Of a stretch of 44,288 bases of DNA, positions 16,442 to 34,042 are shown piece by piece (position 1 is the first letter of the stretch; each line of letters starts with the position of its first letter). The stretch comes from a virus (Duplodnaviria; Caudoviricetes). The stretch lies in the IMG/VR virus record IMGVR_UViG_3300043184_000101, positions 1-44,288 of that record. The stretch is one strand, 5' to 3'. The notes beneath the pieces are model-generated. The model was given only the letters and a program-made list of their open reading frames with translations. It was not told the DNA's origin and ran no database searches. The position numbers and the translations under genes are program-made.

Positions 16442-17192
16442 AATTAGATTTTTTCTTTCCTAAAACAAAGTCTTGGAATTGTTGCTTTGCTTCTTTGAGC
16501 AGGGCATCAGCATTGATGGATAGAGAAATTGGAGGCTCAGAAGTGCTTGAGACTGTAAATAATTGTATTTGCACCAAGTGAATTTGATAGGCAACAATTG
16601 TTCTAACCAAATTTCTATAAACTCTAGCTGCGTTTGGTTGCAAAGTGCTGGTATCAGAAGGAGTGGGATAGCCTTGTTTGGCTGCTAAGGAGTAGACAAC
16701 AGCACTCCATTGATAAATCCATTCTTCTATTGTTGTGCGCTTAGGTTGGCTTTCTTCATCAAGTACAAAATCACTAACCAAACTAGTACATTCCTCTACA
16801 GTTGCCAAAGCCACTCTTTGATTTTGTTCAATAGCAGAGTTGAGCCTCCAACTATGGCTTAAATAGCCTAATCTAAACCATTCTTGCAGCATTTTAGGTA
16901 AATCTGGCAATGGCTTAAGGTATCTAAATATCTCACTGGGCAAAGAACTAGCACGTCTAAAAATAAGCTTCACTGCTGGAGATTGTTGATTGAGTAAAGA
17001 TAAAACATCTTTTTGGTGAGCATTTGGGCTATCAATTGGGTAGCCATTGCGCTCGACTATTTCCAAAAGCTCTGAATATTTGTCAGAAATATCGAGTTCA
17101 ATTGCTTCGCTTGTTGCATCACTAGATGAGCCTATTTCTAAATCAGGTAAAAATATGGCTACTTGTTCTGTTGTGCAGAAAAAGATACTCAT
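16431..17192 (-). CDS. Head-tail adaptor-like protein with two tandem adaptor domains
   Basis: Two repeats: FCTTEQV...GYPID and LATVEEC...GYPTP, like the YcT.edv...gY.vP pattern of DUF1320/gp36-type adaptors. Confidence 0.6.
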   Translation of the reverse strand: MSIFFCTTEQVAIFLPDLEIGSSSDATSEAIELDISDKYSELLEIVERNGYPIDSPNAHQKDVLSLLNQQSPAVKLIFRRASSLPSEIFRYLKPLPDLPKMLQEWFRLGYLSHSWRLNSAIEQNQRVALATVEECTSLVSDFVLDEESQPKRTTIEEWIYQWSAVVYSLAAKQGYPTPSDTSTLQPNAARVYRNLVRTIVAYQIHLVQIQLFTVSSTSEPPISLSINADALLKEAKQQFQDFVLGKKKSNFAR

Positions 17193-17722: not shown

Positions 17723-17737
17723 TGTTTTTCCTTTCTT

Positions 17738-18094
17738 GGGGGTTTTTAAATAACGCCCGAAAAAGTATATTCCAAAAATATAATTAGCTAACTTATAGTA
17801 AAAAAAAGATTTATAAATATGTATTTCAAAGTGTGCCAAAAGATAAAATTAAGAGTATTTTGACATTTTGATTTTGGCACGGCTTTTGGCTCAACAAAAT
17901 CATCAAAATTCATATGTATTATTACTAGATTTACTGTTGAGCCAAAAACTACACTTTTTGGCTCACTTATACTCAATAAGCGTATCCTTATTGTTTACTT
18001 ATATTTATCAGTAGTTTCAATAAAAGCTAGTAACTCTGGGCATAAATTGGCTTACCTTGGAATATACTTTTTCGGGGGATATTTAAAAACCCCC
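17738..18094. mobile_element. 357-bp non-autonomous Tn3-like element (MITE), copy 1
   Basis: 38-bp TIRs GGGGGTTTTTAAATA(ACG/TCC)CCCGAAAAAGTATATTCCAA, 36/38 match; no transposase. Confidence 0.9.
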
Positions 18095-19567
18095 CATGCG
18101 CATCAGGCTAAGAAAAGACTAGGAGTAAGTGATTGAAAATAAAGGGAATCCCTTAGAAAATAAAAACAAAAATATATAAGGGAAACCCTAAAATGAATAG
18201 TGAAATAAAAATAGCAGAAGAAATGAAGAAAGTACTAGAGCAAAAGGCACGAGAGTTAGGACGAGAAAGTGGGTTTATAAAAAGGGAAGTGAAATTGGAC
18301 GGGGCAAAATTTGTGCAGATGTTAGTGTTTGGATGGATGAGTAATCCTCAAGCAACATATGAAGAAATGGCGCAAACAGCAACAACGCTAGGAATAGATA
18401 TAACTTCACAATCAATAGAAGAAAGATTTAGCCCACTCTCAGCAGAGTTCTTAAAGAAGGTGTTAGAAGAAACAATTAAGGTAGTAGTAAGAATGGAGCA
18501 AGCAAATATACCAATATTAGAAAGATTTCAAGGAGTATATATAAAAGATAGTAGTACAATTACGCTACCAGATGAGTTAAAAAAGATATGGAAGGGATGT
18601 GGAGGAACTAACTCAGAACAGGCTCAATCAGCCTTAAAGCTACAAGTACAAATAGACATAAAAAGTGGTAGAATTTCAGGACTGTATTTAGCAGATGGAA
18701 AAGAGCCTGACGTAAGCTCAAAGTTAAACAATCCAGAAACAATGGAGTTAGAGGAAAACTCTATTCACATAGGAGATTTAGGCTATTGGTCAATAAAGGT
18801 CTTTAGAGAGATAGAAAAACAAAGTAGTTATTTTCTATCCAGGCTTAAGACCAGAGTTTTGGTTTATGAGAATACTAAAAAAGCTTGGCCAGTTGTTAAA
18901 ATTTTAGAGAAAAAAAACGCCTCCCAACTAGACACGCAAGTAAAAATAGGAGAAGACGAGCGTTTTGCTTGTCGTTTGCTAGCTGTAAAAGTTCCTCCAG
19001 AAGTTGCAGCAGAACGTAGAAGGAAATGGAATGAAGAGGCTAAAGAAAAAGGGAAAACTGTCAGTAAAGCAAGATTAGCTCAAGCTGATTACTCTGTATT
19101 TATTACTAATGTTCCTGTTAATTTGCTTAGCTTGAAGGAGGCTTTAGTTTTGGCTCGCTGTCGTTGGCAGATAGAATTACTTTTTAAGCTTTGGAAGAGT
19201 TATGGCCAAGTTGACAAATCTCGCAGCCATAAACCATACCGTATTCTTTCTGAAGTATATGCTAAACTTATTATTATGCTCATTCAGCACTGGATTTTGA
19301 TTGCTGGTTGCTGGAATTATCCTAACCGCAGTTTGCCCAAAGCTGTTAAACACATTCAAAAGATGGCTTTATTTATTGCTTGTTCTTTTTCTAATCCCTT
19401 TTTACTTAGCCATTGCCTCAGTATCGTTTTTCTAGGCTTTCCTCATTGTCTTATGAATAAACGCAAAGCACGCCCTAACAATTATCAACTTCTTTTTGAC
19501 ACTGATAATTTGGCTGCTTTACCTAAACCCTTTGTTTTCTCTCTTTGTGCTTAGCCTGATGTGCATG
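18095..19567 (+). mobile_element. IS4-family insertion sequence (IS231-like), ~1.47 kb
   Basis: 18-bp IRs CATGCGCATCAGGCTAAG / CTTAGCCTGATGTGCATG (1 mismatch); duplicated target GGGGATATTTAAAAACCCCC at 18075-18094 and 19568-19587; exact ends ambiguous within the G/C runs. Confidence 0.9.
18193..19554 (+). CDS. IS4-family DDE transposase
   Basis: DSSTITLP, GDLGYW and RWQIELLFKLWKS motifs; stop codon lies inside the right IR. Confidence 0.93.
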   Translation: MNSEIKIAEEMKKVLEQKARELGRESGFIKREVKLDGAKFVQMLVFGWMSNPQATYEEMAQTATTLGIDITSQSIEERFSPLSAEFLKKVLEETIKVVVRMEQANIPILERFQGVYIKDSSTITLPDELKKIWKGCGGTNSEQAQSALKLQVQIDIKSGRISGLYLADGKEPDVSSKLNNPETMELEENSIHIGDLGYWSIKVFREIEKQSSYFLSRLKTRVLVYENTKKAWPVVKILEKKNASQLDTQVKIGEDERFACRLLAVKVPPEVAAERRRKWNEEAKEKGKTVSKARLAQADYSVFITNVPVNLLSLKEALVLARCRWQIELLFKLWKSYGQVDKSRSHKPYRILSEVYAKLIIMLIQHWILIAGCWNYPNRSLPKAVKHIQKMALFIACSFSNPFLLSHCLSIVFLGFPHCLMNKRKARPNNYQLLFDTDNLAALPKPFVFSLCA

Positions 19568-19739
19568 GGGGATATTTAAAAACCCCCAGTTTAGTGCTGA
19601 AGAAAAGAAAATAGCTAAATCGGTTATTGAAGCTTTGATTTTACAGCACCAAGCTAAAGTGCTTGCTACTTTACCTACTAATTAGTTTTAAGTTAGCTAG
19701 TACTAAAGCTTTATAAAAAATACCTCTCTAGAATCTTTA

Positions 19740-20156
19740 TCACAAAGAACTAAAATCAAAATTGTCTATAGAACTCTCTATAAGAGAAACAGATTTTTTT
19801 AAATTATTGATAAAATGCTCTACACTTATTGTGTGCAATTCAGGATACTCTTCTATCACACTTTGCCCGGAATCGTCTGTAAGGCACACTCGACTATCTA
19901 TAATCCAAGTCTGTTCTTTAAAACTACAATCAATAAACCAACATACGAATTTGTTTATTTTGAAATTAGCCTCTATATACATCTCAATCATACTTCCTGA
20001 TTCATAATTTCTAAATTCAAGGTCTCGTATAGTTTTAATTACTTCCTTTTTATTGTCTAATTTTCGGCACATATCCATAAATTTTTCATTACTTTCGGCA
20101 ACAATTTGTACCAAGCTCATAGCTATTTCATTATCTGTCTTTTTTAATTCTTGCAT
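19740..20156 (-). CDS. Cognate immunity protein of the Rhs toxin (putative)
   Basis: Small acidic ORF starting 25 bp after the Rhs stop, SD AAGGA. Confidence 0.75.
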   Translation of the reverse strand: MQELKKTDNEIAMSLVQIVAESNEKFMDMCRKLDNKKEVIKTIRDLEFRNYESGSMIEMYIEANFKINKFVCWFIDCSFKEQTWIIDSRVCLTDDSGQSVIEEYPELHTISVEHFINNLKKSVSLIESSIDNFDFSSL

Positions 20157-20181
20157 TAACTTTTTTCCTTAAGTAATAAGT

Positions 20182-23100
20182 TTAATCTTTTTTAGGAAGT
20201 TTACCTTTATCAACTACAGCCGCTTTTATTTGTTCAGGAGTTGCCATTGCTCCTTTAATACCAACATGACCAGGTGGTACATTGTCTGGAATCACAGATC
20301 CTACTGGTAACTTAGATGTGTCTACTTTAAAATACTCGTTTCCAAACTTAAAAACAGGTAGCTGTCCTTGAGGTAATGGGTATGGATTTGATAGAGAGTC
20401 TCTAAAAGATAATATACCCCCATCTACATCTCGCGGTGTAAGACTACCTGGGTTAGTACGGCCTTCTCGGAAAATAAAAGGTGGAATAGGTATAATTTTT
20501 CCTAATAATAGATCAGGAACTACTTCACCAGCAGCTTCTGCAACAGCAGTAGGTAAATTTCCTTGCTCAATAGATTCTTTTATTGCGTCATTTACATCTG
20601 TTGGATTGTTAGCATATTCTTGATAATCACCAGCTAAATCTATATAAACTTGTACATCTTCTTTGAGTACTTTTTCTGGTTCTTTGCTCAATCTCAGAAT
20701 TTTTACTACTGTACTTGATACTTTGTTTGCTACTCCTTTACCAAATGCTTTGAAAGCTTTACCTACTTTTGAGAAAAACCCTTCTTTCTTTTCAGGTTCT
20801 AATCCAAGAGGATCGGTAAAATTAATAGGATTATTCAAAGTATAACTATATAGGTTAAGAGTTTGTGGGTTTCCAACTTTAGTACTTCCTCTAAATGGAT
20901 CAACACTCATAAATCTTCCATTTATATTTGAATAATACCGAGCTTGGGCAAAATCCAGCCCTGTCTCTTCATCTCGTTGATAACCAGTAAATTTCTGGCG
21001 TATAGAATCGGTAATAGAATAACCAGGTATAGATGACCTATTGCCAACAGAATCAGATAGTTGATCGCCGAATGGCAAGAAATCACGCCTACTGATAACT
21101 TGACTTGAGGAATCAGTTAAGATTCTAGGACTGCCTAAGTGATCTGGGGTGTGGTAATTGATCTTGTCACTTTCAACAGTGGCAAGCATACCGCTAGCAC
21201 CATAGATATGCTCACGAGCAGGAGAACCAATAGCCGCAACTACTTGGCCATCGTACTCAGCAAGTAACCGTCCAGATTGGTCATAAACAAAACGAGTTGT
21301 GAGGGAAGGTGTCAGTTTTTTAACTCTCCAACCGTTAGAATCATAAAAATAGTTGGATATGGTGTTAGATCCTTGAGAAACCGATATAAGCCGATTTTCA
21401 GCATCATAGAGGAAAGACTTACCAGAAGGGTCAGCAATTAAATTACCAGCTAAGTCATAATCATAACCAGGAGAAGAAATTCTATTTTTAGAAGGGGAAA
21501 TTTGTAGGGTTTGAGCATTAGTCCCACTTACACTCAATCTGTTTCCATAACGGTCATAGTCATAGGATTGATTCCAAGTCACTCCAGGATTTAGCGCAAG
21601 AGGAGAAGGTTCTATAGAAGTTGAGAAACCGTTTAAGTCAGCACAAGTGGTTCTACCATTTAGGTTTACAAAAACTGTTGGCAAGTTTCCATTACCAAGA
21701 CTGGTACTATCATATGAAAATATACATTCAACCCTTACTTTTGTACCTACAGAGTTAGGAGGCAATAGGACAAAATAAGTCCTATCTCTACGGTTACGCT
21801 CTGCACTGTCTCCTCCTGATGCATTCCCGTTAGAATCTATAAAAACACCCAAAGAATCAGAAACAGAGTTGAAAGGAGCTTGAGCTATAGCACCCTGACC
21901 ATTTATAAGAACACCCATATTAACCACAGTAGAAGAACCAGGGTTAAGCTGCGGGCTAATTACCTGAGCCGAGTAAGAGATGATCAATTGAAGTTGAGAA
22001 TCAGGACGAGCAAGGCTTGCGTTGGTGAGATCAACTTCAAACATAGCTGTTCCTTCAGAATGTGCTTTAGACACATTCTCTAGACCAAGCGGGCTGTTAG
22101 TTGCGTTAAAACTGCCAACACCATCTACAGCAAAAAAATCACCTGTTTGACCAAGGCTATCCGTAGCAGCACAAAGAACTTGAATTAAACCAGCAACAAC
22201 TTCACCACAAGCAGAGGTAAAACGAAGTTCATGCAAGCCTGTGCTACCACTAGAAGCATCCACCATCAAAGTAAGAGAGTTTGCAGAACTGCTAAGAATA
22301 GATACACTTAAACCACTACCACCAACACTCAAACTTTGGAGTTGGTTAAGTGCTACACCTTCAAGAGTTATAGTGGTTTGTTTTTGAGGTTCAACTTGAG
22401 CAACAACAGAGTCTGCACTACCGCCACCGACTGAAGGACAACCTAAATCACCAAATTCTTTAGCAAGTTTGAGCCTGTTAAGCTCATCATAAGCAAAAGC
22501 CTGCTCAAACACTCCTGTAGAAGTCAAATTAAAAGTATTTTTAGCGCCATTGCCTGGAATAAATCTTCCGCTAGTAAGTTGAGAACCCCCGCCACCATCA
22601 TCTTGACCAGTGTAAATAGTGATGCGGCCAATATTTCCATTGTTTTTGGATTGGTCAAGTTGGGGTTCTGGAGTCGTAGCAGAGCTAAGCGAAGAAAATG
22701 GATAAAGACCGTAGTCATAGCTTAAGCGGAATTTTTCATCACTGAAACGGAAAAAGCCTAAAGAAATATCAGTAGGTTGAAGGCGACTATTGTATTTGAT
22801 GGAGTGATTTAAGCCATTGCCTAATATTTGGTTAGCCAAAGCACCACTAGGACTGTATTCAGCGTTTTGGCTTATAGTTTGGTCATTGCTCATAACTTGA
22901 GTAATTTGACCAGCAATATTGTAGGAATGAGAAATAGTCCTTGTAGAAGGATAAGTATGCTCTACGGGCAAGCTAGCTAGGTTATATGAGCTATTTGTAA
23001 CGTAGTGCTGACCATCAAGAAGTTGGGAGCTTTTTGTAATTCTGCCGCCAATGTCGTAAGTATGAAAAAGCGCGGTAGCAGCATCCCGGGTGGTAGAAGG

Positions 23101-26100
23101 ACTAAGAATAGCCGATGTTCTACCAAGCAAGTTTTGGAAGCTAAAACCTGGAGGTAAACTGACTCCAGAAGGCAAGCCCGAAGGTACCACATCATAAAAG
23201 TATCTAGCTTCGGGGGTAGAATCACTATAAGTTTTAGTAGCAAGGCGATTTATAGAATCATAACTGTAAGTAGTAATTATATTACGTGGATCTTTGCGTT
23301 CTATTAGGTTACTAGCTTTGTCATATTTGTAGAATGTAGAACCATTGGATGAAGCGTCACCACTTTCTGGGCTGGTGGCGGAGATAAGACGACTTAGAGC
23401 GTCATAAGTAAATGTTCGCGTTTGAACGCCTTGATTAACTTGTACCAAATTAGATCTAGCGTCATAAGAGTAAGAAGTAATTTGGTCAAGCGTTTGGGAT
23501 GTAGAATTAGGCTCATAAACATTTGTAAGTCTGCCAGCAGCATCGGTTTCACTTTTACGTTGCTTACCTGCTTGGTCTGTTACTGTGACAAAGTTAGTTT
23601 GATAAGTTGTATTTACAGTGCCAGTTAAAAAGTCAGAATTACCAAAAGTTTGAATCCTAAACACTCTACTCAGAGCGTCATATTGACTAGTAGTGTAACC
23701 GTCGGTAGAGCTTAATCCTGAAAGAGGACGGAAAGGATTGGTTACTTTCTCAACTCTCCCTAGAGCATCATAGAAAGTTTCTGATAGAACATCACCCTCT
23801 GGGTCAGTTCTTCTTTGTTTGGTAGTACGCAAAAACCCATCAAATTCACTTACAGATGTTAAAACCCTACCGCTATCCAGGGAACTTTCTACCGTCACTG
23901 TGTTTGGATACACCCCAGGCGCACTATAAGTGTAGGTGGTACGACCAAAACCACCGTTTGAGTCTCCCCCTGGTCTTGTTTCCAACGTTAAACGGTCTAA
24001 TTTGTCATTGTATTGGAAAGTCGTAGTGTCATTATTAAGTCCTGTGCTAGAAAGTACCGCTCCTGTATGAAAATCAAATACCCGACTTGATGTTAAAACC
24101 CGACTTCCACTCAATCCGCTGCTCACATGTTGCTTACTTTGCTCTGGGAATGTGAATTGTGAGCTTAAATTATAAACACTTTCGCTCCTCTGACCTGGGT
24201 TTGGCCCCAAAACTTCTACTACATTACCTAAAACGTCATAATGAGAATATAACGTTGATGCTTCTGGCCTACCAAAACCCGTTGTTACAGCCGTAACATT
24301 ACCTCTTTGCACACGCGAAGGGCTTTGATAAAGCTGTGCATGACTGTCTACTGTAAGTGTTCTTGGCGTTAAAGCAGCATTATTTGCTCCGCTGTACTGG
24401 TCATATTCGTATTTTGTAGTATTTTCTACTATACCAGCCCCATTTTTTATTGTCTCGGTGTCTACAAGGGAACGCAAATGGGTATCTAAAACGGTGTCTA
24501 AATCGTCACTTTCTTGGGCATTAAGTGCTGTATAATCTATTCCATTTAATGAAGTTACATAAGATCGCTCTACTCTGCGAATTATCTCATTAGCATAACC
24601 GGTTAAAACTTCACTCGTTACGTTGTTAAATTGGTCATATTCGTAGTCAACTTTGCTAGTTTTAGTCCCTCCATCAAGCAAACTATTAGTAGATCTAGTT
24701 ATTCTTGGGTTATTTTCTGGTTGTGCCAAAGTGTTGGCGTCTGCGCCTGCTATCCAGGCTACTCCAGATTGCTGCTGATATGTGGTAATGCTACGGCGCA
24801 TAGGGGTAACGCCATCAAAGTTAAATTGTTGTGTTTCAAGCTCTTTACCTTCTAGCCAAGGACGATATCCAGTTTGTGGAGGTGTGCCGCCTGCTCTATC
24901 TAGCCCACGCTTAGGATGACCCGAAAATTTATGAGAACTTTTACTTAAAATTCTGTCCCCGTTGTTAGGATCTACTTCTGTTTGCTCTACTGTAACATCA
25001 CCATTTACTATGCGTGATGGATCTGTGGGGTCAGAATACGTAACTTTACCTTCAATTTGTGTAGAATTTGATGGAAAAGTTCGCCTTTCTACTACTCTGC
25101 GAAAAATTTGATTGAGTGTAGGGTCATAACCACCATTGTTTAGACCAATATTAGGCCCCATTTCAAACTCTACAACACCTTTAGCAGGAGTTTTAACACT
25201 CACTACCTCACCATAACTGTTGTATTTGAACTCCCATTTATGACCATCTAGTGCAATTGGCGTAGAAGAATCTGGCAAAATGACTTCATTAACAACTCTT
25301 GGGTTAAAAGGTATATCAGGAATTGATAGTTGGACGGCTTCAGCAGGGAACAATTGGTCAATATTCTTCTTGGTTTGCCCTGTAGCAAGATGATTTTCTA
25401 GTTTTCTACCTCTGACGGTAGTAACTCTATCTTGTCCACCAATTCCTTTGACGGTAATAGTAGCCAAAACGCCTGTAGAAACATCATAGCGAACCTCAAT
25501 AGTTCGTCCCATGTTATCAATTACAGTTTTAAGGCGATTGCCATCATAAAGATATTTGATTAAATTGCCGTTGTGGTCGCGTTGTTTGACTACTCTACCT
25601 TGCTCAATTCTAAAACGTGTTCCATCTCTGAGATAAACGTAGCCACTTATGTTGGTTTCGTTTGTACTAAAGAGGGAATCTTTTATTTCTGTGTCACTTA
25701 CAAAAGTTGCAGACGTACCATCTTTAGATTCAAACCGTTTTCCTCTAGAAATGGGCTCACAATTAACTAAAAATCTTGGCTCTCCATCATAAATCCTATC
25801 CCTAAAATCATAGGTTGTTCCGTCTGGAGACGTAAAAGTCACAATCGTTATCGTTTTTTCTGGTTTAGGTGGTTGAACTCCGGGACCTGGAAAGACACAT
25901 GTTCGGTTTGCTTTGTTAATTATTGCCGTGTGAACAACTCTTAGAGCACCTGAATGAATAGTCCAACCTGCTCCTAGTGATGAAATTTCAGGGTCAGGCT
26001 CACTATAAGAAGGAATATAAGTAGTAACTATTGATGGCTGTTCGCCTGCAATTCTGGCTGCAACGTCTGTTTCTACTTTATCTACGTACCAAGTTTTGGA

Positions 26101-26394
26101 ATTGTAGGATAAAACTACTCCAGCACTCATCCCTCCACGACTAGTTAAACTAGCCAAAGGAAATGACATACTCACATTGCCATTAAATAGGTTAACTTTG
26201 TCAAAGTTGCTACCTCCATAACTCCCCAATGGATTAACACCTTTGGCTAATCCAGTCGGTATTGACTGGGTTGTTGGGCTAGAGGTAGTAACATTTGGCG
26301 TTTGCACTGGAGGAGGATTCGTTTGACCAACGGCTACACTCGCTATTTTTAATGCTAACACTATTGCGATTAAGTTTTTCTTCCAACTAAACAT
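20182..26394 (-). CDS. Rhs/YD-repeat polymorphic toxin with Sec-type signal peptide (2070 aa; start corrected to 26394)
   Basis: YD repeats, DHLGSPR, DEETGLDFAQARYY, NLYSYTLNNPINFTDPLGL autoproteolysis motif; N-terminal MFSWKKNLIAIVLALKIASVAVG; SD AAGGA. Confidence 0.95.
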   Translation of the reverse strand: MFSWKKNLIAIVLALKIASVAVGQTNPPPVQTPNVTTSSPTTQSIPTGLAKGVNPLGSYGGSNFDKVNLFNGNVSMSFPLASLTSRGGMSAGVVLSYNSKTWYVDKVETDVAARIAGEQPSIVTTYIPSYSEPDPEISSLGAGWTIHSGALRVVHTAIINKANRTCVFPGPGVQPPKPEKTITIVTFTSPDGTTYDFRDRIYDGEPRFLVNCEPISRGKRFESKDGTSATFVSDTEIKDSLFSTNETNISGYVYLRDGTRFRIEQGRVVKQRDHNGNLIKYLYDGNRLKTVIDNMGRTIEVRYDVSTGVLATITVKGIGGQDRVTTVRGRKLENHLATGQTKKNIDQLFPAEAVQLSIPDIPFNPRVVNEVILPDSSTPIALDGHKWEFKYNSYGEVVSVKTPAKGVVEFEMGPNIGLNNGGYDPTLNQIFRRVVERRTFPSNSTQIEGKVTYSDPTDPSRIVNGDVTVEQTEVDPNNGDRILSKSSHKFSGHPKRGLDRAGGTPPQTGYRPWLEGKELETQQFNFDGVTPMRRSITTYQQQSGVAWIAGADANTLAQPENNPRITRSTNSLLDGGTKTSKVDYEYDQFNNVTSEVLTGYANEIIRRVERSYVTSLNGIDYTALNAQESDDLDTVLDTHLRSLVDTETIKNGAGIVENTTKYEYDQYSGANNAALTPRTLTVDSHAQLYQSPSRVQRGNVTAVTTGFGRPEASTLYSHYDVLGNVVEVLGPNPGQRSESVYNLSSQFTFPEQSKQHVSSGLSGSRVLTSSRVFDFHTGAVLSSTGLNNDTTTFQYNDKLDRLTLETRPGGDSNGGFGRTTYTYSAPGVYPNTVTVESSLDSGRVLTSVSEFDGFLRTTKQRRTDPEGDVLSETFYDALGRVEKVTNPFRPLSGLSSTDGYTTSQYDALSRVFRIQTFGNSDFLTGTVNTTYQTNFVTVTDQAGKQRKSETDAAGRLTNVYEPNSTSQTLDQITSYSYDARSNLVQVNQGVQTRTFTYDALSRLISATSPESGDASSNGSTFYKYDKASNLIERKDPRNIITTYSYDSINRLATKTYSDSTPEARYFYDVVPSGLPSGVSLPPGFSFQNLLGRTSAILSPSTTRDAATALFHTYDIGGRITKSSQLLDGQHYVTNSSYNLASLPVEHTYPSTRTISHSYNIAGQITQVMSNDQTISQNAEYSPSGALANQILGNGLNHSIKYNSRLQPTDISLGFFRFSDEKFRLSYDYGLYPFSSLSSATTPEPQLDQSKNNGNIGRITIYTGQDDGGGGSQLTSGRFIPGNGAKNTFNLTSTGVFEQAFAYDELNRLKLAKEFGDLGCPSVGGGSADSVVAQVEPQKQTTITLEGVALNQLQSLSVGGSGLSVSILSSSANSLTLMVDASSGSTGLHELRFTSACGEVVAGLIQVLCAATDSLGQTGDFFAVDGVGSFNATNSPLGLENVSKAHSEGTAMFEVDLTNASLARPDSQLQLIISYSAQVISPQLNPGSSTVVNMGVLINGQGAIAQAPFNSVSDSLGVFIDSNGNASGGDSAERNRRDRTYFVLLPPNSVGTKVRVECIFSYDSTSLGNGNLPTVFVNLNGRTTCADLNGFSTSIEPSPLALNPGVTWNQSYDYDRYGNRLSVSGTNAQTLQISPSKNRISSPGYDYDLAGNLIADPSGKSFLYDAENRLISVSQGSNTISNYFYDSNGWRVKKLTPSLTTRFVYDQSGRLLAEYDGQVVAAIGSPAREHIYGASGMLATVESDKINYHTPDHLGSPRILTDSSSQVISRRDFLPFGDQLSDSVGNRSSIPGYSITDSIRQKFTGYQRDEETGLDFAQARYYSNINGRFMSVDPFRGSTKVGNPQTLNLYSYTLNNPINFTDPLGLEPEKKEGFFSKVGKAFKAFGKGVANKVSSTVVKILRLSKEPEKVLKEDVQVYIDLAGDYQEYANNPTDVNDAIKESIEQGNLPTAVAEAAGEVVPDLLLGKIIPIPPFIFREGRTNPGSLTPRDVDGGILSFRDSLSNPYPLPQGQLPVFKFGNEYFKVDTSKLPVGSVIPDNVPPGHVGIKGAMATPEQIKAAVVDKGKLPKKD

Positions 26395-26411
26395 AGTCTT
26401 TTCCTTTTTTG

Positions 26412-28820
26412 TTACGGCACTACTGTGATTGTGCAAGTCCATTCAGGGTGCCCTGAGGCAGAAATAGTGGCTGTTCCTACTTCTAATGTAGCGTCTATAA
26501 AAATATCTTCTCCAGGTTTAGCTAAAATACTTAGATTTTGACTTCCTTGTACAAAAGTATACGTAAGCTCAAATCCTGTCCTGTTGTGAACAATTATGGT
26601 TTTCTCTCCTCTTTTCACTGTCAACTCGTCAGGATCAAACCCATAACCGTTAGAGTAGAGGGGAATTTGCTTTCTAGTTCTTAGTGTTATTACTAGATCG
26701 TCGGTTGATGTAAGTTGTCCATCTGTTGCAGTTAACCTTAAGACATAAGTTCCTGGAGAATCAAAAACAGCGTAGGTTGCTAAAGAGGTTTGGGAAGTAA
26801 AAATAACCGATGAGGAACCACTAATTTTGCTCCAACTAAGGCTTAAAACAGAACCTGTCGGCAATCCATCATCGCTAACTGTACCTTCAAGATAGACTGT
26901 TGCTGGTAAAAGTATATCTCTGTCCGCTCCTGCGTTAACTTGAGGAGCGAGATTTTGTGCTTGAGCGGGGTTAACAGTGACAATTACTTCATCACTCCCC
27001 ACCAAAACGCTATCACTAGCCATCAACCTTAAGGCATAAGTGCCAGCCAAAGAAAAACTAGCTTGAGTTATTGCTGTATTTGGGCTTGTAAAATTAACTG
27101 TTCCGGGGCCACTTACCTTTGACCAAGCAAGAGTAAGTTGACCGGGGGGATTAGGAAGCCCGTCATCTGTAACTTGACCTTGCAAGGTAGCTTGATTAGG
27201 CAAAGTAACAGCCTGGTCTTGCCCTGCATTAACTTGTGGAGATTGGTTGTTAGCTTGTGCAGGGTTGACTGTAACAATAACATCATCTGTGGAGGTTAAT
27301 AGACTATCTGACACACTCAGTCTTAAGAGGTAAGTACCCGCCTGACTAAAAGTAGCTTGAGTTATTGCACTGTTAGGGCTAGAAAAAGAGACGCTACCAC
27401 TTCCACTAACTTTACTCCAAGACAAAGTTAGTTGCCCTGGAGGATTGGGAATTCCATCATCTGTAGCCGTGCCATTAAGAGATACAGAGTTAATAGGTAA
27501 AGTAATTGTTTGGTCAGCACCAGCACTAACAACAGGAGGTTTATTTGCGTTACCTCCTCTGGTTACAGTGACGCTAGCATTTCCAGCGTTCCCAAAGATG
27601 TCAGTAGCAATGACTGATATAGTGTTACTACCAGTGTTAAGAGGTATCGTTGCACTATAATTATTGTTGTTAATTGTTGCATTTACATCATTAACCTTTA
27701 CAGAAGTGACAACCGAATCATCACTAAAACTTCCTGTTACTGTTGTTGTGGCAGTATCTATATTTTGGCCTTGAGTTGGCGAAGTGATAGTAACTTGAGG
27801 AGAAGTCACGTCCGAAACGAAACCTTTAATCAAAGAATTGCTATTGAGGTTAACCCTATCACAGGCAAGCAAACCTACTAATTTACTGTTAGAATTAAGG
27901 TTAACTTGTCCGCTGGGTGCTTTTACAGCACCGTAAAGTTCTGTATTAGAGTTTAGGTTTAACCCACCGTTAGAGATATTTAAGGATAAAGAAACAGGAA
28001 TTAGAGGGTTTCCAACCTTAACATTACTACTAAAATTAATGGTATTTTGCACATTAATAGTAACATTGCCTTTGATTTGTATCTCACTGTTAGAATTGAG
28101 ATTTATAGATTGAAAATTATAAATTGTACTTTGGTTATCAACCCCTAAAATAAATCCAGAACCTGCATTAGCAGTAAATTGTCCGTAAGTTCCTGCTGGA
28201 ACAGCTAATAACCCATAGTTTGAGTTTAAGGTAAGATTACGTATGCTAGAGAAATCACCTGGAGTTTGTTTAACACTCAGAGCTAAATCTCTTGTGCCTT
28301 GAGGTTGTGCAACATTGGGTAAGGGGTTAAGTTGTATTGCATCTGTTCTTGTAACTATATGATTAAGAGTAGTATTACTATTTAGGGCTATACTATAACC
28401 TGAAGGTAAATTATTACCAGTTCCAACTACTGTTCCCCTATAAACACTATTACCTCCACCATTTACAGTAATATTAGGCGTTCCAGGTACATAAATATCT
28501 CCTGTAACTACTGTATTGGAATTTAGGCTAAAAGATTCCCCCAACAATACTCTTATTGATCCTTCCACTCTCGTCCCACTTAAATTTGGTGAATGCCTGG
28601 TTACTAAAACTTCTCCTGGTAATTGTAAGGTTGGATTTATACTAGCATTATTAAACAAACTCTTAGCTTTATCTCTTTTTCCCGTCACATCCGCAAACAC
28701 AAAAGAAGACAGACTTAGCAAGTTTGTAATTAACATTATTGACAATAAACACTTTTGCCAACTTAGTAGCTTGTTGCTAAGTAGCTTCTTTTCCCTCAAA
28801 TTATGTATTTTAGTATGCAT
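26412..28820 (-). CDS. Secreted multidomain protein: beta-helix-like LNSN repeats, Ig-like domain, three PKD-like repeats, C-terminal cupredoxin-like domain
   Basis: Signal peptide; repeats NxxPxVxAGxD...DDGLP...WSKVSG...GTYxLRL...DD; C-terminal GFDPDELTVKRG..IVHN; upstream of and co-directional with the Rhs gene. Confidence 0.8.
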   Translation of the reverse strand: MHTKIHNLREKKLLSNKLLSWQKCLLSIMLITNLLSLSSFVFADVTGKRDKAKSLFNNASINPTLQLPGEVLVTRHSPNLSGTRVEGSIRVLLGESFSLNSNTVVTGDIYVPGTPNITVNGGGNSVYRGTVVGTGNNLPSGYSIALNSNTTLNHIVTRTDAIQLNPLPNVAQPQGTRDLALSVKQTPGDFSSIRNLTLNSNYGLLAVPAGTYGQFTANAGSGFILGVDNQSTIYNFQSINLNSNSEIQIKGNVTINVQNTINFSSNVKVGNPLIPVSLSLNISNGGLNLNSNTELYGAVKAPSGQVNLNSNSKLVGLLACDRVNLNSNSLIKGFVSDVTSPQVTITSPTQGQNIDTATTTVTGSFSDDSVVTSVKVNDVNATINNNNYSATIPLNTGSNTISVIATDIFGNAGNASVTVTRGGNANKPPVVSAGADQTITLPINSVSLNGTATDDGIPNPPGQLTLSWSKVSGSGSVSFSSPNSAITQATFSQAGTYLLRLSVSDSLLTSTDDVIVTVNPAQANNQSPQVNAGQDQAVTLPNQATLQGQVTDDGLPNPPGQLTLAWSKVSGPGTVNFTSPNTAITQASFSLAGTYALRLMASDSVLVGSDEVIVTVNPAQAQNLAPQVNAGADRDILLPATVYLEGTVSDDGLPTGSVLSLSWSKISGSSSVIFTSQTSLATYAVFDSPGTYVLRLTATDGQLTSTDDLVITLRTRKQIPLYSNGYGFDPDELTVKRGEKTIIVHNRTGFELTYTFVQGSQNLSILAKPGEDIFIDATLEVGTATISASGHPEWTCTITVVP

Positions 28821-29377
28821 AAATTTTCCTTACGTCTATTTTTGCAAAACAGCATATTACCGCGAAACCTTAGTAATAATTATGACTCATATAAATAGAA
28901 CACAAATTATACTTACAGTACTATTTCTTGCAAGATAAATATTATTTATTTTATCGTAAATAATTTATATAGCGTATTTTATAGCTTTTTTATATTTTAC
29001 GTTATTTTTCTTCAAAATATAAAAAGGGTTCTTGGTGGCTTTTTTATGGCGTGGAAAAAAATCTGTTTATTAAATCAGTGTTTAGTATTTTCATTAATAT
29101 TTTATTATTTTTGATTGGTAAGCCTAAAAAAGTCCCCTATAAAGTATATAGGTGCATTTTTTAGAAAAATCCGGCAAGGGCTAGGAAAAGTTTTTCCGGG
29201 TTGGCGTATTTAATCATAAATACTTACGTCATATCTAATATTTGTATAATCGGTAAGTCATACAAATAGAGTAAGTTCTGAAAAATAAGCTTAAGACCTG
29301 TTTGCAAATGAAATACCTTCATCAAGTTTTATTGATAAATTCTCGTTCAAAACTCTCATTCAAAATTTATTACTTAT

Positions 29378-30505
29378 TTAACGTCCAGGTTCGTCATAAT
29401 CGTCTCTGTCGTCGTAGCCACAACCTTGCTCATACTCGTAAGCTTCAGCCTCTTCTCTCTCCTGCTCCTCCTCTATAAGTCGTTCAATTGTTTGTTCATA
29501 TTCTCTTTCCAAATCCTTAAAGTCGCCAATTGTTTGTTTAGTTGATTGAATTGCTGCCTCCAACTCTCTATTTGTTTCTCCAACAATTTGCTTTCTTGGT
29601 GCCATTGCTGCTTCTCTTTCTCTAGAACCAATATCTTGTTGTCTCGCTTCTTCAACTCGTTCTCCTGCCATCCCACTAGCTCTTGGTAGTGCTCTCTCGC
29701 CTCTGCTACCCTTTTGCTCTCCTCCTCTACCCTCTCTAGACTCTGCTTTAATTGTTGATTCTCTTTCTTGGCCTCTCTCAATAACATTTGAAGTCTGTTG
29801 TTGATTTCCTCTAGTTCTCTCTTGGTCAATTTCTTTTACCCCTGTGTTATGTTTTTCTCTTTGTACATAAATTTCTCTACTTTGCTTTTTTGCTACTTCG
29901 CCATTCCTATTTGCATCTAGCACTAACAACTTATTCATCTCATTTTTCAGCACCCTCTCTTGCTTGTTCCTCTCTATCCTATCCAAGTACTCTTTCTCAT
30001 CTCTTCCCATCTCTTTAGAGTAAACTCTGTTCCATTCTTTATCTAAACTTTTATAAGACCCACTTCCAAAATGAAGTTTTTCACCATTTATTTGTCTAGC
30101 ATCAACCCAAATATGAATGTGGGTATGATCGGTGTCTCTATGAATAAAACCACAAGCTCTTGCAGATGGCACTTTGCTTTCTAACCACTCATTCATCATC
30201 TGCTTTATTTTTTCTGTACTAACATCCCTTTCAAAACTAGCCATTACTCTGTAATGCGTTCTTACTCCTCCCTTCGCTTTAGCTCTGTAAATAGCCCTTT
30301 CACTTTTCTCTCTAGCCCAAGCGTAACAAGCCAAGTTTTCTCTCAGTTCCCTGTAATTTCTTGCTTCTTTTACTGAGTCTGGAATATTCCTCATTAAAAC
30401 TCCCTCTTCTTGATCAAGAACAGCAGTTTGGCGAGATATATATTCCATGTGAGCCATCGACGCTCCCAATTTTCCTACCTTAAATCTAAAAAATGTTGCA
30501 CTCAT
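29378..30505 (-). CDS. Relaxase (HUH, MOBP-like)
   Basis: HMEYISR (catalytic Tyr) and HRDTDHTHIHIWVD (3H motif); ATGA overlap with mobC; adjacent oriT. Confidence 0.88.
   Translation of the reverse strand: MSATFFRFKVGKLGASMAHMEYISRQTAVLDQEEGVLMRNIPDSVKEARNYRELRENLACYAWAREKSERAIYRAKAKGGVRTHYRVMASFERDVSTEKIKQMMNEWLESKVPSARACGFIHRDTDHTHIHIWVDARQINGEKLHFGSGSYKSLDKEWNRVYSKEMGRDEKEYLDRIERNKQERVLKNEMNKLLVLDANRNGEVAKKQSREIYVQREKHNTGVKEIDQERTRGNQQQTSNVIERGQERESTIKAESREGRGGEQKGSRGERALPRASGMAGERVEEARQQDIGSREREAAMAPRKQIVGETNRELEAAIQSTKQTIGDFKDLEREYEQTIERLIEEEQEREEAEAYEYEQGCGYDDRDDYDEPGR
29473..29829 (-). CDS. Overprinted coiled-coil mobilization protein (MbeD/MobB-like) inside the relaxase gene
   Basis: 118-aa alternate-frame ORF, TTG start with SD-like AGGGGT, clear heptad pattern. 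Confidence 0.5.
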   Translation of the reverse strand: MTKRELEEINNRLQMLLREAKKENQQLKQSLERVEEESKRVAEAREHYQELVGWQENELKKRDNKILVLEKEKQQWHQESKLLEKQIESWRQQFNQLNKQLATLRIWKENMNKQLNDL

Positions 30506-30900
30506 AAACCTTCCTCTAGTTCCTTGAGTAAGCCCTTTATTTTTTCTCCAACAAGATTTATTTCTTTTTGACTAATCAAACTTTCTCCTGTGAGTTTATT
30601 ATCTTCGTAACTATGAGCTAATTGATTTACGTTTCTTCCTAACTTCTTTAGCTGCCACATCAACTCTTCAAGTTTCTCTCTTTCCTCCCCCTTTGTTCTT
30701 TTATTTTTTCTCCATTTAACTTTTTCTTTTAATCCTCGCGCTATTAAATATTTACTTACTGTCATATTTGCATATTCTGCCAACTCATTTATCTTCTCGT
30801 ATTCTTCTTTTGTCACCCTAATGAATATAACTTTTTCTCTTTTCTCCTTGACGCTATCTTCTTTGCCTTCAACTTTTTTTACTTTCGCCACTAGTCTCAC
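30502..30900 (-). CDS. mobC: Relaxosome accessory ribbon-helix-helix protein MobC
   Basis: IFIRVTKEEYEKINELA...TVSKYL (RHH) and LKKLGRNVNQLAH motif; GTG start with SD AGGTGAG. Confidence 0.88.
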   Translation of the reverse strand: MRLVAKVKKVEGKEDSVKEKREKVIFIRVTKEEYEKINELAEYANMTVSKYLIARGLKEKVKWRKNKRTKGEEREKLEELMWQLKKLGRNVNQLAHSYEDNKLTGESLISQKEINLVGEKIKGLLKELEEGL

Positions 30901-31081
30901 CTCACCTTTTGCTCTTTTTGATTTTTACCTTATTAGTTTGCGATTTCCAAAATTTAATCTACTCACACCAACTTAACTTTTCATAAATTACTCTTTTACT
31001 TGGCCTAGTTACTCTACAAATCTTTCAGACTACAGAAGGTAGTCTGTTCCCTCCACACAGTGGCAGGACAGTCACAGACTG

Positions 31082-31140
31082 GCACTAGATAGCAATTTTC
31101 AAATTATTTGAAAATTTGCTATCTAGTGCGTATCCTGCAT
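31082..31140 (+). other. Origin of transfer (oriT), predicted nic between 31137 and 31138
   Basis: 22/23-bp inverted repeat GCACTAGATAGCAA(A)TTTTCAAA followed by G-TATCCTG|C, the IncP/T-DNA-type nic core; ~180 bp upstream of mobC. Confidence 0.85.
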
Positions 31141-31267
31141 TCTCTTCTTTTCCCACACACCACTGGATGATAGCACACCCCTCCCTCTCTTTCACTTCTC
31201 TACCGTCACCAAAGCCCACCAAACAACTAATTTCCTAGTATACGCATGGTTGATATCATGTTGCTTA

Positions 31268-31669
31268 CTAGGTAGTGGCCGTCACTTTTGCGTATACGCA
31301 AATGAAGCCCATTCTTTTTCTTGCAGTAAAAAGGCTGCTGGATTCTGAGGTCGTTTCCCCCTGAAAGGGGGACGGAAGGGGGTTTCTTCTTTTATTGCTA
31401 ATTAAGAGTAAGGTAGCCCGATAAAGCGTTAAGCAAAAAATTTTCCCGTAATGTTTTTTATGAAGGGAAAGTTTTTTGTAGCTTTTGAGGGAATTGACAG
31501 GATGATTAAAATTCGTAGACTCGAAGAAGACTAGCAAACTTGTTTGCTGCTGTCTTCTTCGGTCAAGAATTTGTCCAATCATCCTGTCAATGTCTACCGC
31601 TTTTCTTGGGCTAATTTCCTTGCGTCTGATAGCACGTAAAATCTTTTTCCTATATATTTTTTTCAGCAT
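31268..31669 (-). CDS. Hypothetical ORF (doubtful)
   Basis: 133-aa basic ORF with no recognisable motif; may overlap the replication origin. Confidence 0.25.
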   Translation of the reverse strand: MLKKIYRKKILRAIRRKEISPRKAVDIDRMIGQILDRRRQQQTSLLVFFESTNFNHPVNSLKSYKKLSLHKKHYGKIFCLTLYRATLLLISNKRRNPLPSPFQGETTSESSSLFTARKRMGFICVYAKVTATT

Positions 31670-32041
31670 TTCTTTTTTTAATTGCTTAGCACCCCTTTTT
31701 TGCCACTTAAACTATTCTTAAATAACCTATTTATAGTTTTTTAGAATATGAAATTTTTTACGAAATTACTTGTGAAACCCAATATGCATTTTTTTTCTGA
31801 TCAATACTATATTTTACTTACGTCTTATTAGGAGTATTTATTCAACTTTTTTTGGAGTTTTTTCTTTTTTGACTTTTTTTGACCTGTCTTTTTCCTTGCT
31901 GGCTCTTTTGGTGTGCTTTTTTCTAAAATTTTGAAGTTTTTTGACCCACTTTTCCTTTTTTTAAATAGTCCTCCCCTTTGCTGCCTCTTTTTTTACCGCA
32001 GTTCCTCTTTTTATTCTTATTTCTACTTTGTTATTTTCCCT

Positions 32042-32866
32042 CTACATAAATCTATAGCGGTGTTTCTTATAGCTCCTTCCAGCTATACCTCCCACCAATC
32101 CCCTCAACTCATACCCTATCTTCAGTCCATAGCTTCTTGCCTTACTCAATACCGCTTGGTAAAAGTCTGTTTCTGATACCTTCTTCCCACTTGCGCTCTC
32201 TCTTGCTACTTCCTCCGCCGCCTCCTCTATTCCCCTCTTTAGCTCCTCTGGCGCTTCTTCACACGCTATTCTCTCTTCCTCATACCTCGCCTCTTGCTCG
32301 GCCTCCATCCTCTCTAGCGCCTCTCTCCCTCTCCTCTCCTGCTCCAGCCTCTCCTCTTGCGTCAACTCTACCTTCTCCACCACCGCTTCTACTACTTTTA
32401 CCTTAGCCTTTCTTACCCAAGGTCTTTTTACTCTTTGGCTTGACCCTTCCCTTGGCTCTTTTGCTTTCTCTTGTCCTGTTACTTGTCCATAGAATTTGTC
32501 TAATGCCGCATTTCCCTTCCTTATCGCCTCTTTTGCCCACTCTACCGCTGGCCTTGAATAAAATTCTACTATCCTGTAATAGTTCTGATCTGTTCTCTCT
32601 ATTATTATTCTCCCTGTCTCCTTTAGCTCATATAATGCATTTTGCACCTGTCTTACTGATCTCCCCACTGCCTTGGCTAACCATTCTTGGTGGAAAAATG
32701 CCTCTCCTGTTAACTGTTGCTTTTGCCAGATCTGGAAAAACACACGCTCACTCGTTGGTAAATGCTTGATGTGTTTCCTATTTCCCTTGCACATTAGCCA
32801 GTCTGTCTCATTAAATCCTTCTGGCCTTTGCCATACTCCTTCTTGCATATCTAATTCTTGATTCAT
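32042..32866 (-). CDS. Putative replication initiator, N-terminal winged HTH (274 aa; start corrected)
   Basis: FFHQEWLAKAVGRSVRQVQNALYELKETGRIIIER..NYYRI (HTH_36-like); SD AAGGAAGG before ATG 32866; next to the mob module. Confidence 0.65.
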   Translation of the reverse strand: MNQELDMQEGVWQRPEGFNETDWLMCKGNRKHIKHLPTSERVFFQIWQKQQLTGEAFFHQEWLAKAVGRSVRQVQNALYELKETGRIIIERTDQNYYRIVEFYSRPAVEWAKEAIRKGNAALDKFYGQVTGQEKAKEPREGSSQRVKRPWVRKAKVKVVEAVVEKVELTQEERLEQERRGREALERMEAEQEARYEEERIACEEAPEELKRGIEEAAEEVARESASGKKVSETDFYQAVLSKARSYGLKIGYELRGLVGGIAGRSYKKHRYRFM

Positions 32867-33012
32867 ATCTGCGTCCTTCCTTGAAGTCCGCCATCTCACT
32901 AGACCCACCAAATGTTACTTTTAATCCTCAGTCTAACTCGCTTATTTACCGCTACTTGCCACTTTCTCTGTTTTCCTGCTTGCCCTTAGCCGTAAACCTT
33001 TGTTATTCTGAG

Positions 33013-33038
33013 ATTTCGCACATTTGCGTGTGCGAAAT
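33013..33038. promoter_or_regulatory. Inverted repeat upstream of the rep-like gene (possible operator)
   Basis: ATTTCGCACA-tttgcg-TGTGCGAAAT perfect 10-bp arms. Confidence 0.4.
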
Positions 33039-33207
33039 TTTTATTTTATAAAACAATCAAATTACGGGGTCTGCTACTTTGGCAGCCTTTTCTTTTTTGT
33101 AAGCAAAAATTGTGAAACGAAATGTACACCATTGGGAGGTATTTGGGTAGAGTTACTTTTGTGCAGCAGCAAAATAAAGAGCTTGCCACTTTATTTGCTG
33201 GTTAGTT

Positions 33208-33657
33208 TTAGTCACTCAAAAGATCAGTATAAAACTCCTTGACATCTAAAATAGGTACAGACCATTCAGACACCTGTAACCCATCTTCATTCACAACTTG
33301 ACGTGCAGGCACAAAAGAAAAAGGATCCTTTCCACCGAATTTTATTTGCGACTGATTTAGAAAAAAGATCTGATTTTGTATAAAAACAAAATCTTCTACA
33401 CGGTACATAGGCCACCAAAATATAAAGCTTGCTGTTTTAGGATCGAGCATTGACGTTATTAAGCAAGACGTTGGTTCTTCATTAATAATTCGATCTAAGG
33501 CTTGTTTCCAATGTTGAAGATAGTCATCAACAGACCAATAACCCAAAGCTGAAGTAAAGTGCTCTCGAAAATTACCTAAAGTAATTAAGCCAAACACAGC
33601 TTCTCCATCATCGCAAGTAATAATTTTGTCAGGTACTAATTTTATTGAAAATGCCAT
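33208..33657 (-). CDS. cdiI: Orphan CdiI-type immunity protein (resembles Enterobacter cloacae CdiI)
   Basis: LGYWSVDDYLQHW, TSMLDPKTASFIFWWPMY, FIQNQIFFL and EDGLQVSEW match my recollection of CdiI-ECL (LSYW...DY..SW, SMYEP...FIFTW.LY, VQN..IFL, DG.KISEW). Confidence 0.75.
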   Translation of the reverse strand: MAFSIKLVPDKIITCDDGEAVFGLITLGNFREHFTSALGYWSVDDYLQHWKQALDRIINEEPTSCLITSMLDPKTASFIFWWPMYRVEDFVFIQNQIFFLNQSQIKFGGKDPFSFVPARQVVNEDGLQVSEWSVPILDVKEFYTDLLSD

Positions 33658-33673
33658 AATCTATTTCCCAATA

Positions 33674-34030
33674 GGGGGTTTTTAAATAACGCCCGAAAAA
33701 GTATATTCCAAAAATATAATTAGCTAACTTATAGTAAAAAAAAGATTTATAAATATGTATTTCAAAGTGTGCCAAAAGATAAAATTAAGAGTATTTTGAC
33801 ATTTTGATTTTGGCACGGCTTTTGGCTCAACAAAATCATCAAAATTCATATGTATTATTACTAGATTTACTGTTGAGCCAAAAACTACACTTTTTGGCTC
33901 ACTTATACTCAATAAGCGTATCCTTATTGTTTACTTATATTTATCAGTAGTTTCAATAAAAGCTAGTAACTCTGGGCATAAATTGGCTTACCTTGGAATA
34001 TACTTTTTCGGGGGATATTTAAAAACCCCC
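33674..34030. mobile_element. 357-bp non-autonomous Tn3-like element (MITE), copy 2
   Basis: Same orientation and, by eye, same sequence as 17738-18094 (offset 15,936); intact 38-bp TIRs. Confidence 0.9.
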
Positions 34031-34042
34031 TTCTTGTTTGAT

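What the first reader, a model, noticed from the sequence alone, without database searches (positions are those of the whole stretch)
17738..34030. Toxin-bearing mobilizable plasmid docked inside a prophage by a Tn3-like MITE (unresolved cointegrate)
Seen: two directly repeated 357-bp elements bound a 14,086-bp segment (19588-33673) encoding a Rep-like wHTH protein, oriT, MobC, relaxase and an Rhs toxin locus; one 5-bp TSD (TTCTT) flanks the whole block; no Tn3 transposase or resolvase is inside. Established: Tn3-family replicative transposition fuses donor and target with a directly repeated element at each junction and a 5-bp TSD. Inference: a whole plasmid was fused into the phage operon by a trans-mobilized MITE. 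Recombination between the copies would release a 15,936-bp circle and leave one MITE, giving a reversible plasmid-phage-toxin docking system. The integrated oriT could also mobilize flanking prophage DNA Hfr-style.
Basis: partly seen in the sequence, partly recalled or inferred. Interest (0 to 1): 0.9.

Follow-up and report, generated by a model that had tools for sequence, protein, structure and literature searches.

The report
Rhs plasmid fused into Acidobacteria prophage
A small gene-less jumping element has landed in a temperate bacterial virus, and the assembly places a likely toxin-carrying plasmid between two identical copies of it, probably a plasmid-virus fusion of a long-known kind, although the short-read data cannot exclude that plasmid and virus are separate molecules.

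Summary
Two identical 357-bp elements with 38-bp inverted ends bound the block, and TTCTT flanks it on both sides. Related phages in 3 of 6 runs laid (two studies) show the empty site. The host is a Blastocatellia (Acidobacteriota). The element's end matches 30/38 the end of a Tn3 transposon in that family, and it carries a conserved res-like core. The interior is plasmid-like: a circular 18.9-kb relative has the same Rep-mob-PKD-Rhs-immunity order.

Three corrections. (1) The inner junctions do not match, so at least a toxin tip was lost: nearly, not wholly, a plasmid. (2) An IS4 sits in the left element's end, with an unusual 20-bp duplication. (3) The fusion is unproven: cointegrate and separate molecules give identical k-mers up to k=358, and only contigs were available.

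The mechanism is known. IS101 made pSC101-phage f1 cointegrates, and TIME-COMP2 carries a rep gene and a partial mob gene. Reversible docking and Hfr-like transfer are untested. Fusion by either route about 0.58 (single-element cointegrate 0.48); separate molecules about 0.38.

The parts
17733..17737 (+). left copy of 5-bp target duplication TTCTT
   Evidence: single copy in the empty allele (joint 17732->34031 in runs X2, X3)
17738..18094 (+). 357-bp Tn3-derived miniature element (TIME), left copy; 38-bp inverted ends 17738-17775 and 18057-18094
   Evidence: right end 30/38 to the end beside a Tn3 tnpA in G006
17938..17965 (.). perfect 11-6-11 palindrome inside the element, candidate resolution crossover site, with three further half-site-like repeats at 17833, 17872, 17884 (same core at 33874-33901)
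   Evidence: 3 of 2000 shuffles; same geometry with changed arms in 2 of 2 complete relatives
18095..19567 (+). IS4-family insertion sequence, 1473 bp, CAT ends, transposase 18193-19554; duplicates the terminal 20 bp of the element's end (18075-18094 and 19568-19587)
   Evidence: NF033592 201 bits, cut-off 115
19588..19685 (+). 3' remnant of an XRE-like regulator gene (label recalled), cut by the element; conserved after Rhs-immunity pairs in relatives
19740..20156 (-). probable cognate immunity gene (by position only)
   Evidence: no family hit
20182..26442 (-). intact Rhs/YD protein, 2086 aa, DPxG at residue 1877, C-terminal tip possibly a Tse2-like ADP-ribosyltransferase
   Evidence: tip is a weak lead only (Atlas score 0.90; no Pfam hit)
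26412..28820 (-). PKD/Ig-domain protein that precedes Rhs in this family
29378..30505 (-). MobA/VirD2-like (MOBP-type) relaxase, HRDTDHTHIH motif
   Evidence: 57% to the relaxase of circular contig G001:C52
30502..30900 (-). MobC/NikA accessory protein
31082..31138 (+). predicted oriT: inverted repeat directly followed by TATCCTGC
   Evidence: MOBP nick motif per PMC3772185 passages
31328..31608 (.). conserved hairpin cluster of plasmid backbones, candidate single-strand origin or leading-region signal
   Evidence: 77-82% in G001:C62 and G006:C371; DNA fold z=-8.9; no Rfam match
32042..32866 (-). winged-helix protein, likely replication initiator
   Evidence: HTH_36 below cut-off; hhalign 94% over 95 columns to the protein in the same slot of circular G001:C65; Atlas neighbours 0.95-0.96 include P1 RepL
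33208..33657 (-). orphan CdiI-family immunity gene; only the last three codons and stop of its upstream gene remain before the element
   Evidence: the homologue in G006:C371 follows a toxin-like reading frame with the same stop-to-start spacing
33674..34030 (+). 357-bp element, right copy, identical and directly repeated
34031..34035 (+). right copy of target duplication TTCTT; the site is intergenic between phage genes 34043-34744 and 17225-17722

Best explanation
Two identical Tn3-type miniature elements flank a plasmid-like Rhs segment inside a temperate phage, and the likely origin is replicative transposition of a single element from a small mobilisable plasmid, driven by a Tn3 transposase presumably supplied in trans, which would have fused plasmid and phage into a cointegrate that has not been resolved. 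Shown: insertion with a 5-bp duplication into a site that is empty in related phages; exactly two copies in the best-matching run; plasmid architecture shared with circular relatives. Inferred: before the fusion the donor circle had lost a short stretch next to the element (at least an old toxin tip), so it has no duplication of its own; the IS4 may already have been in the donor's right end, leaving the full 38-bp end intact and usable; resolution at the res-like core or by RecA would release a 15,936-bp circle and leave one element in the phage; the 16.3-kb insert probably cripples the phage.
For: Empty allele in X2 and X3 and X7. All four junctions exist as contigs in X1, element depth 62-67 against 28-38 for the plasmid and phage pieces and 45.5 for the IS piece; plasmid/phage depth ratio 0.95. 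G001:C65 is circular with the same gene order; G004:C683 has the insert's two end regions adjacent. A relative of the element sits singly with a 5-bp duplication on circular C52. Tn3 transposase matches in 4 of 9 family genomes, one with a 30/38 matching end. X1 holds a longer element sharing the left 195 bp at single-copy depth. IS101 precedent.
Against: Fused and separate states have identical k-mer content up to k=358 and no listed contig spans an element copy. Equal depth is weak: in X2 and X3, which lack the element, a related rep contig also sits near phage depth (8.3 vs 10.9; 32.7 vs 36-49). A res-like core favours fast resolution; directly repeated TIME244 pairs were 7 of 142 in PMC13367494. 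The cognate transposase and resolvase were not seen. Rep function is inferred only.
Confidence: 0.48

Rival explanations
1. Same transposition event, but already resolved: the phage carries one element with the TTCTT duplication, the plasmid is a free 15,936-bp circle with one element and the IS, and the assembler threaded the circle into the phage through the 357-bp repeat.
For: Graph is 2-in, 2-out at the element and k-mer identical to the fusion. Relatives of the plasmid assemble as free circles. Res-like core present and resolvase genes lie beside family Tn3s. That SPAdes-type assemblers unroll simple loops by coverage is recalled, not confirmed: PMC4058921 has no word 'loop' and one search found no paper.
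Against: The contig was assembled straight through both copies, as paired reads longer than the repeat would allow; depth ratio 0.95. Assembler and insert size are unknown.
Confidence: 0.38
2. Physically fused, but by the composite route: two elements sat on the plasmid, and the long arc between them moved as a TIME-COMP, leaving the short arc (the missing toxin tip) behind. The final sequence is the same.
For: Explains the mismatched inner junctions without a separate deletion; TIME-COMP2 arose this way.
Against: Needs two copies on one small replicon despite Tn3 target immunity; only two copies exist in X1.
Confidence: 0.1
3. The interior is not a replicon but a piece of a chromosomal Rhs island or integrative mobilisable element, carried as passive cargo.
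For: Rep-like protein has no above-threshold family, no PLSDB match, no meaningful PDB match; no iterons seen. PKD-Rhs homologues also lie on contigs of 65-79 kb in G002.
Against: Circular relatives with the same order, the same slot filled by a homologous winged-helix protein, and adjacency of the two end regions.
Confidence: 0.04

Closest known systems
IS101 of pSC101 (209-bp TIME; as described in PMC4133298 Discussion and PMC13367494 Introduction)
   Same: Gene-less Tn3-type element on a plasmid, moved in trans, forming plasmid-phage cointegrates (pSC101 with phage f1); carries a res site.
   Different: Laboratory cointegrates with a filamentous phage in E. coli; here a natural tailed temperate phage of Acidobacteriota, a 357-bp element of unrelated sequence, and a 14-kb Rhs plasmid. 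Function here is untested.
TIME-COMP2 of Pseudomonas ZM1 (PMC4133298)
   Same: Two identical directly repeated TIMEs around plasmid rep and mob DNA, 5-bp flanking duplication, no transposition genes of its own family inside.
   Different: 3.9 kb with a partial mobA, caught in a trap plasmid; here 16.3 kb with complete mobC, relaxase, oriT motif and an Rhs locus, plus a nested IS4.
TIME244, IS101 and MITESen1 TIME-COMPs (PMC13367494)
   Same: TIME-bounded cargo with 5-6 bp duplications, up to 11.4 kb; one type sits in putative phage-plasmids; directly repeated pairs argued to be unstable.
   Different: Resistance-gene cargo in Enterobacteriaceae; not near-complete replicons.
IS231/ISH8 subgroups of IS4 (PMC2266710)
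   Same: CAT ends, about 1.5 kb, single DDE transposase; preference of IS231A for Tn4430 ends is recalled, not read here.
   Different: Duplication is 20 bp against 10-12 bp for IS231, 10 bp for ISH8 and 7-13 bp across the family (Table 1); the YREK tyrosine is replaced.

Membership tests
TIME (Tn3-derived miniature element) | 50-500 bp, no transposase | tested here: met
   357 bp; six frames show only short or antisense-like open stretches; no listed ORF inside besides the spurious 5' extension of a phage gene
TIME (Tn3-derived miniature element) | about 38-bp terminal inverted repeats related to a Tn3-family transposon end | tested here: met
   38 bp, 36/38; 30/38 to the end 83 bp past a Tn3 tnpA stop in G006:C222, best of 1000 shuffles 23. 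The other end of that transposon was not found.
TIME (Tn3-derived miniature element) | 5-6 bp target duplication | tested here: met
   TTCTT with empty allele; relative on C52 has ATTTT on both sides, relative on C110 has none: 1 of 2
TIME (Tn3-derived miniature element) | mobilised in trans by a Tn3 TnpA | not testable with these tools
   Host genome not held; longer relative in X1 seen only as partial alignments
Tn3-type cointegrate | directly repeated element at both junctions, duplication only on the target side | tested here: met
Tn3-type cointegrate | donor and target on one molecule | tested here: inconclusive
Tn3-type cointegrate | interior equals the complete donor replicon | tested here: inconclusive
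   End regions adjacent in a relative and order matches a circle, but inner flanks differ and a gene is cut at each
MOBP mobilisable plasmid | relaxase, accessory MobC and oriT with inverted repeat plus nick motif | tested here: met
   (MobP1/P2 models hit far below cut-off)
MOBP mobilisable plasmid | autonomous replication | tested here: inconclusive
   synteny and profile match only; no structure obtained
IS4 family, IS231/ISH8 subgroups | IS4 transposase and CAT ends | tested here: met
IS4 family, IS231/ISH8 subgroups | 10-12 bp target duplication | tested here: not met
   20 bp in the window and in G006:C222 against Table 1 of PMC2266710

The most novel reading that the evidence does not exclude
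A natural, switchable plasmid-prophage fusion: a family of Blastocatellia Rhs-toxin plasmids docks into and out of a temperate phage through a res-carrying MITE, arming the lysogen, disabling the phage and turning it into an Hfr-like donor, while an IS4 lineage that cuts a two-helical-turn (20-bp) duplication rides on the same Tn3 ends.
Probability: 0.12. Interest if true: 0.72.

Novelty: new member of a known kind. Interest (0 to 1): 0.42.

Why it matters
If the fusion is real it is a natural snapshot of a transposition intermediate joining three kinds of mobile element in a phylum whose plasmids are barely described, and it would place an oriT upstream of phage head genes. If it is not, the record is a clear example of plasmid DNA and toxin genes entering viral databases through a shared 357-bp repeat. 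Either way two side results stand: a family of small circular PKD-Rhs plasmids in Blastocatellia, and an IS4 lineage with 20-bp duplications, outside the 7-13 bp range tabulated for the family.

Tried and rejected
Exact pattern scans for the element's end found 0 matches in viral contigs, 0 in GTDB contigs and 1 in metagenome contigs (L001: 95 identical bases of the right end in a chromosomal-looking context). No viral relatives of the relaxase or of the 233-aa flanking gene. No PLSDB match for relaxase or Rep-like protein. PDB sequence search with the Rep alignment gave only nitrophorin noise at E>=0.029; no structure model was obtained, so the fold is open. The sequence that continues the longer X1 relative was not found in 0 of 9 family genomes, so its identity as the autonomous partner is unproven. 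The element's interior did not align to the res regions of the fetched Tn3 loci. No Rfam family; no promoter excess in the element. My early idea that the mismatched junctions mean a fragment of a large island was dropped. A Mu-like phage was rejected: relatives carry a tyrosine integrase. Runs X8-X24 held small shares; only X8 was laid and showed one 173-bp piece of an IS relative; no habitat claim is made. Depth parity was considered as proof of fusion and rejected. Look-ups of earlier scan findings gave nothing on this locus.
Full report
Observation. The window is a whole virus record of 44,288 bp. The two 357-bp copies at 17738-18094 and 33674-34030 are identical, directly repeated, have 38-bp inverted ends (36/38) and are flanked outside by TTCTT; a chance 5-mer match has P=0.0016. 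The site is intergenic in a phage late region with terminase, portal-like and endolysin hits. Inside lie relaxase, MobC, PKD, Rhs and CdiI_N genes and a weak winged-helix protein; none of 34 proteins scanned hit a Tn3 transposase or resolvase. Two things are not in the finding: an IS4 element at 18095-19567 that duplicated the last 20 bp of the left element's end, and inner flanks that do not match (AGTTT, CAATA).

The insertion is real. Six runs were laid in two calls. A related phage with the empty site is seen in X2 and X3 (joint 17732 to 34031; one study) and X7 (another study): 3 of 6. X1, probably the source sample and so not independent, shows the filled state. Two related prophage-like regions in genome G001 also lack the insert; one carries two other genes in this slot and both lack the 165-aa gene, so the slot is variable. 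Viral relatives carry a tyrosine integrase. The host lineage is Blastocatellia, from a relaxase cluster member and the one GTDB locus found.

The element is a TIME. Of 9 family genomes, 3 hold related sequence and 4 hold Tn3 transposase matches. In G006:C222 an end 83 bp past a Tn3 tnpA stop matches the element's right end at 30 of 38 positions; 1000 shuffles of that 150-bp stretch reached at most 23. The far end of that transposon was not found. Of two complete relatives in G001, the one on contig C52 has a 5-bp duplication and the one on C110 has none. All three share a central 11-6-11 palindrome with changed arms; 3 of 2000 shuffles gave a perfect one. I read it as a candidate resolution site; which recombinase acts on it is unknown. 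X1 also holds a longer element sharing the left 195 bp at depth 31-34, a candidate partner that could not be read further (0 of 9 genomes).

The interior is plasmid-like. A search with the 14-kb interior hit 7 of 9 family genomes. G001:C65 (18,852 bp) has a 121-bp terminal overlap and the order Rep-like, integrase-like gene, PKD, Rhs, immunity-like gene, XRE remnant, leader, the same as the insert except for a different mobilisation module. Of 10 G001 contigs tested, chosen by hits or as large controls, 4 had the overlap (C52, C62, C65, C76) and 6 did not; 0 of 3 short contigs from other genomes did. C52 carries the 57% relaxase homologue and an RPA-family initiator. In G004:C683 the XRE remnant lies 18 bp from the rep leader, so the two end regions of the insert are neighbours in a relative. 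The window's Rep-like family matches the C65/C371 proteins at 94% probability over 95 columns (shallow profiles of 7 and 2 sequences), and no other initiator-like hit appeared among 8 of C65's ORFs scanned. An inverted repeat directly followed by TATCCTGC fits the MOBP oriT described in PMC3772185 (passages). Replication itself is not shown. The plasmid is not whole: the element cuts the XRE remnant on one side and, on the other, leaves three codons of the gene before CdiI, where G006:C371 has a toxin-like frame with the same spacing.

Fused or separate. In X1 the element is one collapsed node at depth 62-67 with two entries and two exits; all four junctions are real. The length-weighted plasmid/phage depth ratio is 0.95, leaving out the IS contig (45.5) and a 411-bp phage contig (45.1) that may be shared with a second strain. 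But the fused and separate arrangements have identical k-mers up to k=358, no listed contig spans a copy, and in X2 and X3 a related rep contig is near phage depth with no element present. Both states are products of one reaction. I put fusion by either route at about 0.58 and separate molecules at 0.38. Loop unrolling by the assembler is recalled; the exSPAnder paper (passages) does not mention loops and one search found nothing.

Mechanism. Most likely a trans-supplied TnpA moved the single donor element into the phage by replicative transposition. An IS4 already in the donor's end would leave the full 38-bp end usable and give the observed asymmetry; the identical IS-end-to-interior junction in X6 and X7 at depth 2-3 fits this but does not date it. 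Resolution would release 15,936 bp. By the RP4 rule (recalled), transfer from the nick would run towards rep, CdiI and then the phage head genes, and needs a helper conjugation system absent from the insert. A 16.3-kb addition to relatives whose matching integrase-to-lysis span is about 30-35 kb would probably exceed packaging limits; this is inference. The Rhs tip resembles Tse2-like ADP-ribosyltransferases only weakly.

Comparison. PMC4133298 (passages and first part of the Discussion) states that IS101 was discovered through pSC101-phage f1 cointegrates, and describes TIME-COMP2 with two identical direct TIMEs around rep and partial mobA. PMC13367494 (abstract, introduction, passages) lists TIME-COMPs to 11.4 kb, one type in putative phage-plasmids, and 7 direct against 135 inverted TIME244 pairs. 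The mechanism is therefore known. Searches (listings only) showed no report of such a fusion or of Rhs plasmids in Blastocatellia; the library omits most subscription papers, and no supplements were read, so tables of TIME or IS copies there could bear on novelty.

Side result. Among 7 paired IS4-type elements the 20-bp duplication is perfect in 2 (window, G006:C222), 19/20 by eye in 1, absent in 3 and unreadable in 1; one further 19/20 match spans two elements on G006:C165. Several targets resemble the first 20 bp of the Tn3-type ends. The CCC/GGG flank bias is partly built in, since the pattern held two flanking bases; two unbiased loose ends in X1 also begin GGG. Table 1 of PMC2266710 (passages) gives 7-13 bp for IS4 subgroups. 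PMC6199540 (passages) did not state the IS231A end preference, which stays recalled.

Verdict. Real feature, known kind, key step unproven: interest 0.42.

Noticed in passing
window 18075-19587; G006:C222 (L032 8752-10267); G004:C734 (L108); G006:C165 (L109, L112): IS4-family lineage and its short derivatives with 20-bp target duplications, often in sequences resembling Tn3-type ends; canonical IS4 duplications are 7-13 bp.
   Followed up: partly
G001:C65, C52, C62, C76 (L077, L039/L040, L016/L076, L088): Four circular 12-31 kb plasmid-like contigs in one Blastocatellia genome, with mix-and-match Rep and mobilisation modules; C65 carries PKD-Rhs and an Hfq-domain gene.
   Followed up: partly
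window 31328-31608: Strongly structured 280-bp backbone element shared by several plasmids; several different contigs in X1 branch off here; no Rfam match.
   Followed up: partly
window 19588-19685 and 33163-33205: An XRE-like 3' remnant follows immunity genes in this plasmid family, apparently twice in the window (second copy degenerate, by eye); may mark how Rhs tips are swapped.
   Followed up: partly
L001 2393-2860: The element's right end is interrupted after 95 bp by a second miniature element with long inverted ends; a similar end recurs inside the C52 relative and in L130.
   Followed up: no
G001:C44 41276-43737; G001:C18 81105-84335: Related phages have ParA plus Rep-O-like genes right after the lysis region as well as an integrase, hinting at a phage-plasmid lifestyle; the window stops before this point.
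   Followed up: partly
window 12140-13408: LAGLIDADG-type endonuclease gene on the opposite strand just upstream of the long tail-like gene; absent from the matching stretch of the two G001 relatives.
   Followed up: no
run X1, window 16370-17156: Variants at depth 15-30 show a second, diverged strain or copy of the phage in the same sample.
   Followed up: no
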